A program made the position numbers and the translations under genes. A DNA stretch of 64,000 nucleotides. Source: Eledone cirrhosa. Lineage: Eukaryota. Below, piece by piece: positions 56,801 to 62,600 of this stretch. Each line of letters begins with the position of its first letter. Positions within the stretch are counted from its first letter, which is position 1. The notes beneath the pieces are model-generated. The model did no database searches. It saw only the letters and a list, made by a program, of their open reading frames with translations, and was not told the DNA's origin. The DNA lies in the NCBI GenBank assembly GCA_964016885.1, contig OZ024763.1, positions 20,398,001 to 20,462,000 of the forward strand, given 5' to 3'.

Positions 56801-58527
56801 GGGTGCTTTTTCGTGGCGCCTACACGTCCACTTTACAGTGTGGGCTGGGTGCTTTTTTGCCGTGGCACCTCCACGACCACCTTGCGGTGGGGGGAGTGGG
56901 GGCATATTGTTTATATGCTTCAGCATGTACCCATGGGAGGTCGGGTACCCTGTATTACTGCGTGTATAAAGATTATTCTATATATATATATAAATATATG
57001 AGGGACTAAACTCTGTGAGTGAACATCGTTAATTTTCTCCCTCATATCAAGGATTTGAAGACAATTCATTTTCACCTGACGAGATCAGTGATAATCGATC
57101 ATGGCTACACGATCGATCTATCTCTTATTGAAACATGTGTCGTGATTAAAATGATTGGAAATTGATACCATGCCTTCGGATCTTTATTTTGATATAAATA
57201 TATATATATAGAAAGTGAACAACACAATATATAACTACTCCATTACCAAAGGTTTCAGGACGCTAGACATATGTTAATATTGTCTAGGGTCCTGAAACCT
57301 TTGGTAATGGAGTAGTTATATATTGTGTTGTTCACTTTCTAATTAAATAGCTCTGTTTTATACATAGTGTACTCTTTTTCCTTTGCTTTTTCTTTGGAAA
57401 TATTTAACACATATATCATCATCATCATCATCATCATCATCATTTTACGTCCGCTTTTCGCTGCTTGCAAGGGTAGGATGGGAACTGATGCTGGCTTGAT
57501 TTCTACAGCTGGATGCCCTTCCTAACACCAACCTCATTTACAGTGAGTGCTGGGTGCTTTTTTGCCGTGGCACCTCCACGACCACTTTACAGTGGAATGA
57601 TAGGGACCCCAGTCCTAGCATCTCATTTCTACAGCTGAGTAAACTGGAGCAATGTGAAATAAAGTGTCTTGCTCAAGGAAACAACACATCACCCGGTCTG
57701 AGAATTGAACTCACAACCTTTCGATTGCAAGGTCACTGCTCTAACCACTAAGACATGTGCCTCCATATATATATATATATATATAGCCGTCTAACCCTTG
57801 CTAGCATGGAAGATGGACGTTAAACGATGATGATGATGATGATGATATATAGTTCATTATATATCTTGTATCTTCTGTTGCCAGCTTGATCTTATCAACA
57901 TGTGTCTGCTACATGGATATAGATATTTATTTGAAGGAAGGTATAAACTCATTATACCAACAGCTCTCCAATGTCTAAATCTGTACAGGATGTTATACAA
58001 AGCTGAAGGTGTTGAATGGGTCCCAGCTTATTTACTTCTCACTGAATGCTTACTAGGTAAAAACAAAATATACCCTTCATCTATTCTTATTTACTTTTTC
58101 TCTCTGATCTGCCTGTCTGTCTATCTAATTTGTTTGTTTTATCACGTACACACATCAAACCAACAGAAATATTTATTTTTCTGTTTCACAAACTGCCAAT
58201 TTTATGTGGTCCTCTCAATTAAATCGTGCGAAACCACAGCTGGTCTGAGAGTTGAAGAAGTAAAGAAAATGTGTGTGTGACCTTGTTATGTTCATTATCT
58301 TCCTTTGTTTCTTTCTTCCTACCACTTCTGTGGGCCACAACAAAAAGCACCCAATACACACTGTAAATGTGATTGGTGTTAGAAATGGCAACCAGCTGTA
58401 GAAACCAAGCCAAAATCAGTTCTGTATGAACAAGACATGGTCACCTGACCTGGCATTTCTCACAACAGGACAACTCGTCAAACCCATGCTAGCATGGACA
58501 AATGGATGTTAAACAAAGATGATGATG

Positions 58528-58571
<44 letters not shown>

Positions 58572-58689
58572 TCATCACCGTTTAATGTCCATTTTTCCAC
58601 GCTAGCATGGGTTAGACATACATATATATATACATATATATATAACAACTAGAAATTGATTAACATATAAATAAACATATGAAACAATC

Positions 58690-58746
<57 letters not shown>

Positions 58747-59309
58747 TAGGACTGACATTCATTAAAAAATCCGAGAAACCTATAATGAGGTAACAAGATG
58801 CAACCTCGTTGGAGGAGAGCTTAACCTGCATAATATGTGTGTGTTTGTGTGTGTGGGGAGGCAGGGGTATGTGTGTGAGCTGAGCTGAGCTGAGCTGAGA
58901 AGTAAATTCAGTTTGAATTACATTTCATTGTTGCTGTTGTTGTTTTATTGTTGTTGTCATTGACAGGTTTGGGTCAGACAAACGAGGCAGCTAATTACAT
59001 ATCTCTAATCAACTGGTTTGAGACAAAGAACAAAGTTACTGGAACCAAATGTAACCATATGGTCAAGAGGACAATGGCCAAACTGTCAATGGTCAGAGGA
59101 AACTACCAGCAAGCCTTGGATGAACTGTCTGAAGATGTAAGTTGTTGTTGTTGTTACTGTTGTTGTTGTTAGTGTTGGTTGTTACTGTTATTGTTGTTAC
59201 TGTTGTTGTTGTTATTGTTGCTGTTGTTTATGTTGTTGCTGTTACTTTTGTTATTGTTGTTACTGTTGACGTTAAAAGGTGATGATGATGATATATATAT
59301 ATATATATA

Positions 59310-59365
<56 letters not shown>

Positions 59366-59606
59366 GATATTAAATAAATGGAAACTATATTTATAAAACC
59401 AAATTTTTTCTATTATATATATTTCAAGGGTACCAAGGTTTTTGGTACCCTAGAAATATATATAATAGAATAAATATTGTTTTATAAATATAGTTTCCAT
59501 TTATTTAATATCATTGAATATTTACTCCAGAAATCTGTCGAGTGCTCTGAATCAGTTATAAACATTTATATTTGTTGAATTTCCAACGAATTAAATATCC
59601 CTTCTA

Positions 59607-59651
<45 letters not shown>

Positions 59652-62600
59652 TAAAATAACAGATTAAAGTTTAAGCAAAGATTCACTGCTTTCACCCTTA
59701 ACGAGATCTTCTGAAACAGAAGATCCCGTTAAGGGTGAAAGGAGTGATTCTTTGCTTAAACTTTAATCTGTTATTTTAATAAATATTTGCTCTAGGGTTC
59801 TTATATATTTGATATATATTTATCCTTATTGAGCCCTCTTTGGATTTTAATCTTCACATTTATTATTATTACTATATATATATATGTGTGTGTGTGTGTG
59901 TATAGCATTCCACAAACACGCATACCCTTAACATAGTTCTCAGGAAGATTCAGTGTGGAACCTGGAATTTACTGCTCCATTTAAACTCCATTTAAACTCA
60001 TGAAAATGAGGCAACAAAGAGAAAAGCTCATCAGAATAATTGCCATGAAAATATTTATAAAAAATGGCTAAAAGAAGCAACATTCAAATGACATGAAATT
60101 CTTCTTCTTCGGCTGAATTTTCACTCACAAATTTTCATATTTGTTTTGGTTGCTGAATACAAACAGGGGTCGCTGCTTCTCCTGAAGGTCAATAGTTCTC
60201 TTCTAACTCGAGCGGGGGTGCTTTCCATTGTCAATTTGCATTGATCATCTGCAAAGCCGCATTGTTCTCAGAACCACTCTTTCGATGTGTGCAGCTGGAA
60301 CCAGTCTTTCGATGCGTGCAGCTGGAACCAGTCTTTCGATGCGTGCAGCTGGAACCAGTCTTTCGATGCGTGCAGCTGGAACCAGTCTTTCGATGCGTGC
60401 AGCTGGAACCAGTCTTTCGATGCGTACAGCTGGAACTACTGCCACCCATTGATTTGGCAGGACTTTTTTTTCTTTTTTTTTTTTTAGATGGCCATTGACT
60501 CTTATCAGTTTTTCCGCCCTTTGTTAGGTTTTGTTTTTTGTCCTGCATGTTGTCCAAAATCACCCTCCTCACCAAGTAAACATGGTAGGGTTGCCAGTTT
60601 TGTCGCCGACGACCTGACCATGCAACAGGTTGTACCAGGCTACATGCTAACAGTAGCATTCAAGATCATGAAAGTGGTAACAATTAAATATTTGATGTTT
60701 GTTTTTTCTTCTTCTGCAGATATTTTTGGCTTCTGAGAAATATGGAACCCTTGATATTAAAACTTCTGGAGGGTATTTTAATATGGCAAATGTATATTTC
60801 ATTGGAGGACGACTGGAGGTGACACATTCTTTATATAAAAAAGTAAGGATTTATGTAGTGTGACCAGACTCATATAAGGTTTCTAATAGACGCAGGATTG
60901 ATGTAAAATGTGAGGAGTTACCTAGTGGTAAGGGTGTTGGACTTGCAATCATAACATCATGGGTTCGATTCCTGGATTGGGTTGTGTGTTGTGTTCTTGA
61001 GTAAAATACTTCATTTCACATTGCTCCAGTGGTAAGGGTGTTGGACTTGCAATCATAACATAGCGTGTTGTGTTCTTGAGTAAAACACTTCATTTCACGT
61101 TGCTCCAGTGGTAAGGGTGTTGGACTTACGATCATAATGTCATGGGTTCGATTTCTGGACTGGGTTGTGGGTTGTGTTCTTGAGCAAAACACTTCATTTC
61201 ACGTTGCTTTTAGGAACACTATGTCTGATGACCAGTAATACAACTATAATACTGTATTTTAGATAATGTAGTCCTATTGTAGAACCTAAGGTGGTTTCAA
61301 GTAGACTGGTATCAAATGGGTTAAGCTGGTGTTTGGAACATAACTTAACAAAGGTTCTTACATAAAATTATGATGGGAATTTTTTTAGATAAATATAAAC
61401 AATTTCAAATAAAGTTTTGTATTGTAGAACCTGGGGCAATCTCATGCAGTTTGGTATCAAGTGTTAAGTGTTTGGAACATGACTTAACAAAGGTTCTTAC
61501 ATAAATTTAAGATGGATTGTTTTTAGCTACTGTAAAGAACCTCCAGCCCACACTGTAAAGTGATTGTGTAGGTGTCATGGCAAAAATCACCCAACACACA
61601 CTGTAAATGTGGTTGGCGTTAGGAAGGGCATCCAGCCGTAGAAAACCAGCCAGACACTCTCCTATATGAGTGAGACACGGTCACCCAACCCAACTTGCCT
61701 CTAACTGGGACAAACCCATCTAACTCATGCTAGCATGGAAGATAGACGTTAATCGACAATGATGATGATGATAGGTATTTTAAAACAAACAATTTCCTAC
61801 CGTAGAATAAGGGATGGTTTTAGGTAGGTTGCTGTCAATAAGGTTAAAATTGATACTAAGAGAATAATTTATAAACTTATTTCTTCTCAGGTCATTGATA
61901 TTTGGTGTAAACATTTGGAAACTTTGTTTAACCAGAAGTTGAAGACAAGTACACCAGATATAGCATTACCAATAAAGGAGGAACAATATGAAGCGTTAAG
62001 TAATACTCAAAATATATATATAGTGTCTGTCTATTTGTGTTGTTATTCAGATTAACCCTTTAGCATTTAAACCAGCCGCATCTGACCAGAATTCTCTCAC
62101 CTCTTTCTGTTCAGACTGGCTATAACTGGCCACTCATACTGATGTTCTTAGAATAAATAATATCCAAATCTCATAGATTCGATATTATGTGAGATAAAAT
62201 ATTTAACCCTTTAGCATTTACATTACTCTATATTTATTATTGTATTTTTACAGTAAAGGCTTTATCTTACACAATATCTCACATAATATCGAATCTATGA
62301 GATTTGGATATTATTTATTTTGAGAACAACACCTCAAATAGGTCGCTTATGGCCAATTTGAAGAGAAAGAGATGAGAGAGTTCTGGCCAGATATGGCTGG
62401 TTTGAATGCTAAAGGGTTAATGCAAAAATACAATAGTAAATATAGAGTAATGTAAATGTTATGTGAGATATTGTGTGAGGTAAAGCCTTTACCGTAAAAA
62501 TACAATAGTATATATAGATATATGTAAAAGCTAAAGAGTTAAAGTGTAAGGTAAAGCCTTTACTGTGAAAATACAATAGTAAATACAGAGTAATGTAAAT

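What the first reader, a model, noticed from the sequence alone, without database searches (positions are those of the whole stretch)
57209..59786. Recurrent short palindromes folded back at hammerhead helix II, suggesting ribozyme-hairpin snap-back during PLE retrotransposition
Seen: palindromes at 57209-57341, 59363-59515 and 59644-59786. In each, the symmetry axis is a stem-loop whose 3' side runs straight into GAAA, and the CTGANGA half is missing, replaced by an inverted copy of the downstream sequence. The first two continue into a helix III/NUH-like segment (GAAA-CCTTTGG-TA, GAAA-TATATA-TA); this is less clear in the third. A sister copy of the 57209 family at about 25290-25490 (-) keeps CTGACGA and is not palindromic, which serves as an internal control. 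Known: PLEs often insert with inverted 5' segments and carry minimal hammerheads. Inference: nascent cDNA pauses and self-primes at helix II, so the ribozyme hairpin sets the inversion breakpoint. I am not aware of this being described as a systematic rule.
Basis: partly seen in the sequence, partly recalled or inferred. Interest (0 to 1): 0.75.

Follow-up and report, generated by a model that had tools for sequence, protein, structure and literature searches.

The report
Penelope twin-primed palindromes, minor ribozyme hotspot
These three mirror-image repeats are stumps of common Penelope-like jumping genes, likely made by copying one RNA from both cut ends of the target DNA; the ribozyme hairpin fixes the fold point in two of the three and in under a tenth of the related copies counted, so it is a real but minor hotspot, not a rule.

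Summary
The three palindromes are real. Each is the 5' end (pseudo-LTR plus tail) of a different Hydra-clade Penelope-like element, inserted in (TA)n: an inverted arm without the tail joined to a direct arm with it, a published layout. Palindromes 1 and 2 are joined exactly in helix II register; palindrome 3 is not and keeps its core. Genome-wide the helix II joint is a sharp hotspot (31 of 50 listed loci in each of two families; about 8- and 24-fold over other spacings) but at most 9.5% and 5.3% of two-armed copies counted, and 0 of 50 in family 3, whose hotspot is another self-complementary tract. Most joints lie upstream, at an initiator-like A, often with an extra G. Snap-back of one cDNA cannot be the rule: in 73 of 123 inverted copies the tail-less arm reaches further, 29 have non-overlapping arms, and the helix II loop faces either way (16:12). 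Best reading: twin priming at two fixed RT starts, cDNA ends joined by complementarity; later collapse or fold-back are not excluded for the hotspot. The scan noted twin priming before on other DNA.

The parts
57209..57269 (-). Family 1 insertion, inverted arm (no tail); outer end at family position about +88, next to (TA)n
57257..57293 (+). Family 1 helix II (37 nt) forming the palindrome centre; joint in exact stem register, loop in the direct orientation
57270..57341 (+). Family 1 direct arm: loop and 3' stem of helix II, GAAA (57294-57297), helix III, NUH, 3' strand of helix I
57342..57409 (+). Family 1 one-sided tail, ending at (CA/TA)n
59363..59436 (-). Family 2 insertion, inverted arm (no tail); outer end at about +95
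59426..59452 (+). Family 2 helix II (27 nt) at the palindrome centre, in register
59437..59515 (+). Family 2 direct arm with GAAA (59453-59456), helix III and NUH
59516..59609 (+). Family 2 one-sided tail
59644..59713 (-). Family 3 insertion, inverted arm (no tail), inserted in the (TA)n run that follows the family 2 copy; outer end at about +65
59717..59786 (+). Family 3 direct arm with intact hammerhead-like layout: core variant CAGAAGA, 13-nt helix II, GAAA; axis is 5' of the core, near the predicted start site
59787..59874 (+). Family 3 one-sided tail
25291..25488 (-). Family 1 sister copy: 5'-truncated, intact CTGACGA core at 25449, tail present, no inverted arm

Best explanation
These are short insertions of three Penelope-like retroelement families, each an inverted arm joined to a tail-bearing direct arm, most likely made by twin priming: both cut ends of a (TA)n target would prime reverse transcription on the element RNA at two fixed sites just downstream of the hammerhead. 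Shown: parents with RT and GIY-YIG ORFs, fixed outer ends, variable joints, the helix II hotspot and its small share. Inferred: one primer starts at the end of the tail, the other at its start; both cDNAs usually run to the capped 5' end of the RNA, which lies only 5-80 nt upstream of the hammerhead core, so short palindromes always contain hammerhead sequence; the two cDNA 3' ends are then joined through 0-5 nt of microhomology or a few added bases. Where the RNA has an inverted repeat, the two same-sense cDNAs can pair through it. Helix II (11-13 bp in families 1 and 2) is the longest such tract, which gives the in-register class with the loop in either orientation; in family 3, whose helix II is 3-4 bp, the tract TTC-A-GAA takes that role. 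The hairpin acts as sequence complementarity, not as a ribozyme.
For: Parents: pLTR-tail-ORF copies with RT and GIY-YIG for all three families (motifs). Fixed outer end of the inverted arm before any filter: 68 of 91 at +80..+99, 54 of 69 at +95..+101, 52 of 65 at +61..+71. Tail-anchored sample, 216 loci after dropping 8 duplicates of 224: 123 clear inversions, 75 without, 18 unclear; tail-less arm reaches further 5' in 73, direct arm in 33, equal within 6 nt in 17; arms do not overlap in 29; an arm keeps the core in 93. Both arms pile up at -15..-11 (family 1), -81..-66 with a cliff at -79 (family 2), -9..+2 (family 3), each at an initiator-like A. Arms ending at that A carry a 5' G in 22 of 46 (families 1, 2) against 59 of 258 other ends, Fisher p=0.0009. 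Arms of one locus share subfamily alleles (differ at 35 of 302 sites, against 0.53 between loci). Helix II register: 31 of 50 listed of 80 (p=1e-11), 31 of 50 listed of 81; upstream class 283 and 866 loci. Loop direct 16, inverted 12 (read by eye; p=0.57). Family 3: 0 of 50 in helix II register, 23 of 50 at TTC-A-GAA. A purified PLE protein cuts and extends both target strands and starts RT at two internal sites bounding the tail (PMC11167929, parts 1-2 of 4).
Against: No RNA data: the start site and cap are inferred. In family 3 the extra G is seen in only 2 of 12 ends, and some Gs in families 1-2 can also be read from the partner arm. Shared alleles between arms fit snap-back as well as twin priming. 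For the in-register class the three routes give the same product; its arms are somewhat more diverged than others (63 of 679 against 32 of 620 sites, Mann-Whitney p=0.10), a weak lean to later collapse. In the tail-anchored sample alone helix II was not enriched (4 against 3.3 by permutation in family 1); the enrichment rests on the pattern lists, which show the first 50 loci in contig order and need both arms to match exactly. Breakpoints are mapped on other real copies and are good to a few bases.
Confidence: 0.7

Rival explanations
1. For the helix II class only: the insertion was first a longer palindrome joined near the RNA start, and its centre was later deleted between the two stem copies, which are direct repeats in such a palindrome.
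For: Gives exact register and both loop orientations. In-register arms are slightly more diverged (9.3% against 5.2%, p=0.10). Two copies (L188, L212) have lost helix II between short direct repeats, so such deletions occur. Instability of long palindromes is recalled knowledge.
Against: The age trend is not significant and rests on 23 and 21 loci; 866 long family 2 palindromes persist uncollapsed.
Confidence: 0.3
2. For the helix II class only: one of the two target-primed cDNAs folds back on its copy of helix II, self-primes, and the new sense strand then captures the other cDNA.
For: Exact register in two families; either cDNA could fold, so both loop orientations are allowed; self-priming was proposed for PLE inverted junctions (PMC3846280).
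Against: Needs extra steps; 29 of 123 joints have no arm overlap and so need direct cDNA-to-cDNA joining anyway; single arm ends show no pile-up at the 5' base of helix II.
Confidence: 0.25
3. One reading: the single nascent cDNA pauses and snaps back at helix II, and this sets PLE inversion breakpoints systematically.
For: Two of the three window palindromes and a real genome-wide hotspot.
Against: At most 9.5% and 5.3% of two-armed copies counted, none of 50 in family 3; 73 of 123 inversions hold upstream sequence only in the tail-less arm, which a tail-primed cDNA cannot have copied from itself; 12 of 28 loops face the wrong way; fixed outer end unexplained.
Confidence: 0.03
4. Ordinary TIR MITEs that move as a palindromic unit.
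For: Short, palindromic, TA-flanked.
Against: One-sided tail, a different joint in nearly every copy, RT-encoding parents.
Confidence: 0.01

Closest known systems
EN+ Penelope-like element insertions with an inverted 5'-truncated pLTR and a one-sided tail (PMC8557442 Fig. 2 legend and passages; PMC3846280 passages)
   Same: Head-to-head inverted arm, tail on one side, hammerhead in the pLTR, ORF starting just after the tail, palindromes at the inverted joint.
   Different: Tails here are about 60-95 nt, not 30-40; most copies are 150-450-nt stumps; the joint positions were mapped and follow the predicted RNA start and self-complementary tracts, which these papers do not report in the passages read.
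Hydra clade of C-terminal EN+ PLEs (PMC8557442, section 11 read whole)
   Same: RW[KR], DKT, CxCx5C linker, no CCHH, CxxC and CxH in the endonuclease, ORF under 3 kb, (TA)n targets.
   Different: No tree was built; family 3 carries a core variant (CAGAAGA) rather than a canonical hammerhead.
Two internal RT start sites of the anole Poseidon element PAc (PMC11167929, parts 1-2 of 4)
   Same: Two fixed 3' ends bounding the tail, about 60-190 nt downstream of the hammerhead core; AT-rich targets; uncut RNA is the template.
   Different: That paper does not, in the parts read, link the two sites to the inverted arm or describe the joint.
L1 twin priming (PMC2912911, passages)
   Same: Two target-primed cDNAs annealed at short complementarity; copies with abutting, non-overlapping arms.
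   Different: In L1 the second priming site is a chance internal match and arms rarely duplicate; here it is a fixed site and the arms often overlap into a palindrome.
Self-priming model for PLE inverted repeats (PMC3846280, Discussion passage)
   Different: Proposed on an antisense RNA template and not at helix II; the arm geometry here argues against it as the main route.

Membership tests
EN+ Penelope-like elements | Single ORF with PLE-type RT and C-terminal GIY-YIG endonuclease linked to the repeat | tested here: met
   L182 (family 3), L184 (family 2), L181 (family 1): ORF follows the tail on the hammerhead strand; YxDD in all three, IY..Y.G in L182 and L184, degenerate in L181. Pfam scores were below cut-off. 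One or two parents per family.
EN+ Penelope-like elements | pLTR-ORF-pLTR partial tandem | tested here: met
   L182 and L183 carry the segment at both ends, the 3' copy ending at the inner fixed site; in L181 and L184 the 3' end is rearranged.
EN+ Penelope-like elements | Inverted 5'-truncated arm and one-sided tail | tested here: met
   123 of 216 tail-anchored loci.
EN+ Penelope-like elements | Type I hammerhead in the pLTR | tested here: inconclusive
   Families 1 and 2: CTGAYGA, helix II, GAAA, short helix III, NUH, helix I. Family 3: same layout with CAGAAGA. No Rfam hit; cleavage untested.
EN+ Penelope-like elements | Target-site duplication | tested here: inconclusive
   Not readable in (TA)n; 108 of 123 inverted arms abut a TA run.
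Hydra clade | RWK-type motif, DKT, CxCx5C linker, no CCHH, CxxC and CxH motifs | tested here: met
   all found in L182 and L184; L181 has DKT, linker, CxxC, CxH, and a stop at the RW position.
Hydra clade | Insertion into (TA)n; element under about 3 kb | tested here: met
Hydra clade | Placement in the clade on an RT tree | not tested
   No reference Hydra sequences were fetched.
TIR MITE | Terminal inverted repeats at both ends, uniform interior | tested here: not met
   One-sided tail and variable centre.
Animal non-LTR retrozyme | Tandem hammerhead monomers, no coding parent in cis | tested here: not met
   Single hammerhead per arm, coding parents; definition from bioRxiv 10.64898/2026.07.22.740005, part 1 of 5.
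Twin-primed inversion (L1 type) | Second strand primed on RNA independently of the first cDNA | tested here: met
   73 of 123 with upstream sequence only in the inverted arm; 29 of 123 without overlap. Inferred from structure, not from an assay.

The most novel reading that the evidence does not exclude
PLE integration closes by pairing two target-primed cDNAs through self-complementary tracts of the element's 5' RNA, so the hammerhead's long helix II doubles as a built-in splint that joins (and disarms) the two halves; the copies also record the RNA's start site and cap. Stem length would then predict joint hotspots in any PLE family.
Probability: 0.35. Interest if true: 0.6.

Novelty: new member of a known kind. 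Interest (0 to 1): 0.4.

Why it matters
How PLEs make their inverted arm and one-sided tail is stated to be open (PMC8557442, PMC11167929). These families give thousands of natural joints that favour priming from both target ends over the published self-priming idea, and give sharp predictions for the existing in vitro system: RNA start at a named A, two fixed RT starts, and in-register joints that depend on stem pairing and not on ribozyme catalysis. The helix II effect itself is a side product in under a tenth of copies. Searches that found no paper stating it: (open-licence library only; most subscription papers are missing).

Tried and rejected
Rfam scan: no hammerhead family hit in the window. 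Pfam on parent ORFs: below cut-off; classification rests on motifs. The GIY-YIG ORF upstream of L091, L102 and L109 was first taken for the family 1 parent; it is separated by (TA)n and belongs to another PLE, so it was rejected. Two-template test: arms are not drawn from different subfamilies, so the idea of two random RNAs was dropped; families 2 and 3 had too few diagnostic sites. Helix I register as a general rule: a few joints fit it (L110, L007) but family 2 has almost no ends there. Pairing of the tail with the sequence after it: z=-2.2 in family 2, not in families 1 and 3. No RNA holder listed. Reads and contigs on palindrome 1: no piece spans the axis, inconclusive; raw reads of other individuals do show strand-switch joints of family 1 at other positions (60 and 71 reads from one start each, 6 reads from two starts). 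L026 had no anchor and was left out of the score-ranked set. Supplements of the papers were not opened; they may hold junction data.
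Full report
Observation. In the first two the distance from the inverted TTTC to GAAA (37 and 27 nt) equals helix II of the family, and CTGANGA is absent. The third differs: its axis is just 5' of the core, and the right arm keeps CAGAAGA, a 13-nt helix II and GAAA exactly as the full-length parent does. 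Each palindrome continues on the right only, as a tail of 60-95 nt, and is flanked by (TA)n. The sister at 25291-25488 (-) is an ordinary 5'-truncated copy with an intact core.

What they are. The genome is 3.0 Gb. Exact tail patterns match 984, 265 and 12,953 places for families 1, 2 and 3, lower bounds on copy number. For each family a copy was found in which the tail runs on into an ORF with RT and GIY-YIG parts on the hammerhead strand (L181, L184, L182/L183). The proteins carry the motifs that define the Hydra clade in PMC8557442 (section 11 read; motifs). The palindromes are therefore 5' pLTR stumps of autonomous PLEs. The layout, inverted truncated arm plus one-sided tail, is the published one.

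Junction mapping. I mapped both arms on real long copies, with 0 at the first base of the core. The outer end of the inverted arm is fixed: 68 of 91, 54 of 69 and 52 of 65 candidate arms end within 7-20 nt of one AT-rich site at the start of the tail (before filtering). For an unbiased view I used loci found by the tail alone: 224, less 8 duplicates, 216; 123 have a clear inverted arm, 75 none, 18 unclear. Both ends lie in helix II in 4 of 123 (all family 1; 3.3 expected by permutation; one more among the unclear). In 93 of 123 at least one arm keeps the core. The inverted arm reaches further 5' in 73, the direct arm in 33, and they are equal within 6 nt in 17. In 29 the arms do not overlap. 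A tail-primed cDNA that folds back on itself can only give a direct arm that reaches further, so it is excluded for at least 73 of 123. Joints carry 0-5 nt of microhomology or a few extra bases, as at L1 twin-priming joints (PMC2912911, passages).

Where most joints fall. Both arms pile up at -15..-11 in family 1, at -81..-66 with a cliff at -79 in family 2, and at -9..+2 in family 3. Each spot is an A in an initiator-like context (consensus recalled; TCACT is named as Inr-like in a rotifer pLTR; Penelope has an internal promoter). Arms ending at that A have a G before it in 22 of 46 cases in families 1 and 2, against 59 of 258 elsewhere (p=0.0009); the templated base is C. An added base opposite a cap is recalled from L1. 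Family 3 does not show it clearly (2 of 12). I infer that both cDNAs often run off the capped 5' end of the RNA, which sits just upstream of the hammerhead. No RNA run was available to test this.

The helix II hotspot is real. Patterns that need the GAAA half on both arms give the spacing directly. Family 1 and its close subfamilies: 80 loci at spacer 16-46, 159 at 47-77, 283 at 90-120 (78-89 and over 120 not searched). Of the 50 listed in the first bin, 31 have exactly the helix II length, against 13 over the 14 flanking lengths (about 8-fold, p=1e-11). Family 2: 81 loci at 5-35, 31 of 50 listed in register (about 24-fold), against 866 at 190-220. The in-register class is thus about 50 loci per family, at most 9.5% and 5.3% of the bins searched. 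Family 3, whose helix II has 3-4 bp: 1,225 loci at 3-33, none of 50 listed in helix II register, 23 of 50 at the self-complementary TTC-A-GAA across the core. The hotspot follows complementarity, not helix II as such.

How the in-register class forms. For the 31 in-register family 1 loci I read the loop against the tail side: 16 direct, 12 inverted, 1 ambiguous, 2 without a single tail (p=0.57 for 1:1). Snap-back of the tail-primed cDNA gives only the direct kind. Three symmetric routes remain: annealing of the two cDNAs through the stems (my preference, about 0.45, since direct cDNA joining is needed anyway for non-overlapping arms), later deletion of the centre of a longer palindrome between the stem copies (about 0.3; weak age trend), or fold-back of either cDNA followed by capture of the other (about 0.25). 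The arms of one locus share subfamily alleles, so both come from one RNA or one source; this does not separate the routes.

Fit to what is known. A purified PLE protein nicks and extends both strands of AT-rich DNA, starts RT at two internal sites that bound the tail, and does not need hammerhead cleavage (PMC11167929). That supplies the two fixed ends seen here. Self-priming was already proposed for palindromes at PLE inverted joints (PMC3846280). I found no paper that ties the inverted arm to twin priming or reports hairpin-register joints, within an open-licence library. Earlier notes of this scan reached the twin-priming reading on other genomes and on other pieces of this one; they are unchecked and were seen after my reading was formed.

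Verdict. Observation partly confirmed (two of three as described). Interpretation partly supported: helix II is a true but minor breakpoint hotspot in families with a long stem; it is not the rule, and single-cDNA snap-back is not the main mechanism. New members of a known kind, with a useful mechanistic footprint. Interest 0.4.

Noticed in passing
window 29300-32560: A 3.2-kb head-to-head inverted pair of another hammerhead-bearing element (CTGACGA cores at 29400 - and 32414 +), tail on the right side only; same layout at a larger scale.
   Followed up: partly
window 59717-59723 and family 3 genome-wide: The most abundant of the three families (12,953 exact tail matches) carries CAGAAGA in place of CTGANGA in the copies seen, likely a dead or slow ribozyme, in line with cleavage being dispensable.
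   Followed up: partly
window 56399-56482: An 84-nt near-perfect palindrome with no loop and no hammerhead motif; family not identified.
   Followed up: no
window 57020-57200: A further hammerhead-like motif (CTGACGA at 57076, long helix II, GAAA) directly upstream of palindrome 1, from a different repeat.
   Followed up: no
window 42209-42327: Family 3 tail remnant on the - strand.
   Followed up: partly
window 41302-41367: Perfect 66-nt palindrome centred on a (TA)n run.
   Followed up: no
L188 and L212: Direct arm has lost helix II between two short direct repeats, in two loci with slightly different sequence.
   Followed up: partly
L181, L182, L184 just after the tail: The three parents share short motifs after the tail; one can pair with a motif in the tail in family 2 (z=-2.2) but the folds of families 1 and 3 are unremarkable.
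   Followed up: partly
window 58968-59138: Exon-like stretch between AG and GT; frame 1 has stops, other frames were not run. If real, palindromes 2 and 3 are intronic.
   Followed up: no
window 4000-13000: Strong C-over-G skew (about -0.7), probably a satellite.
   Followed up: no
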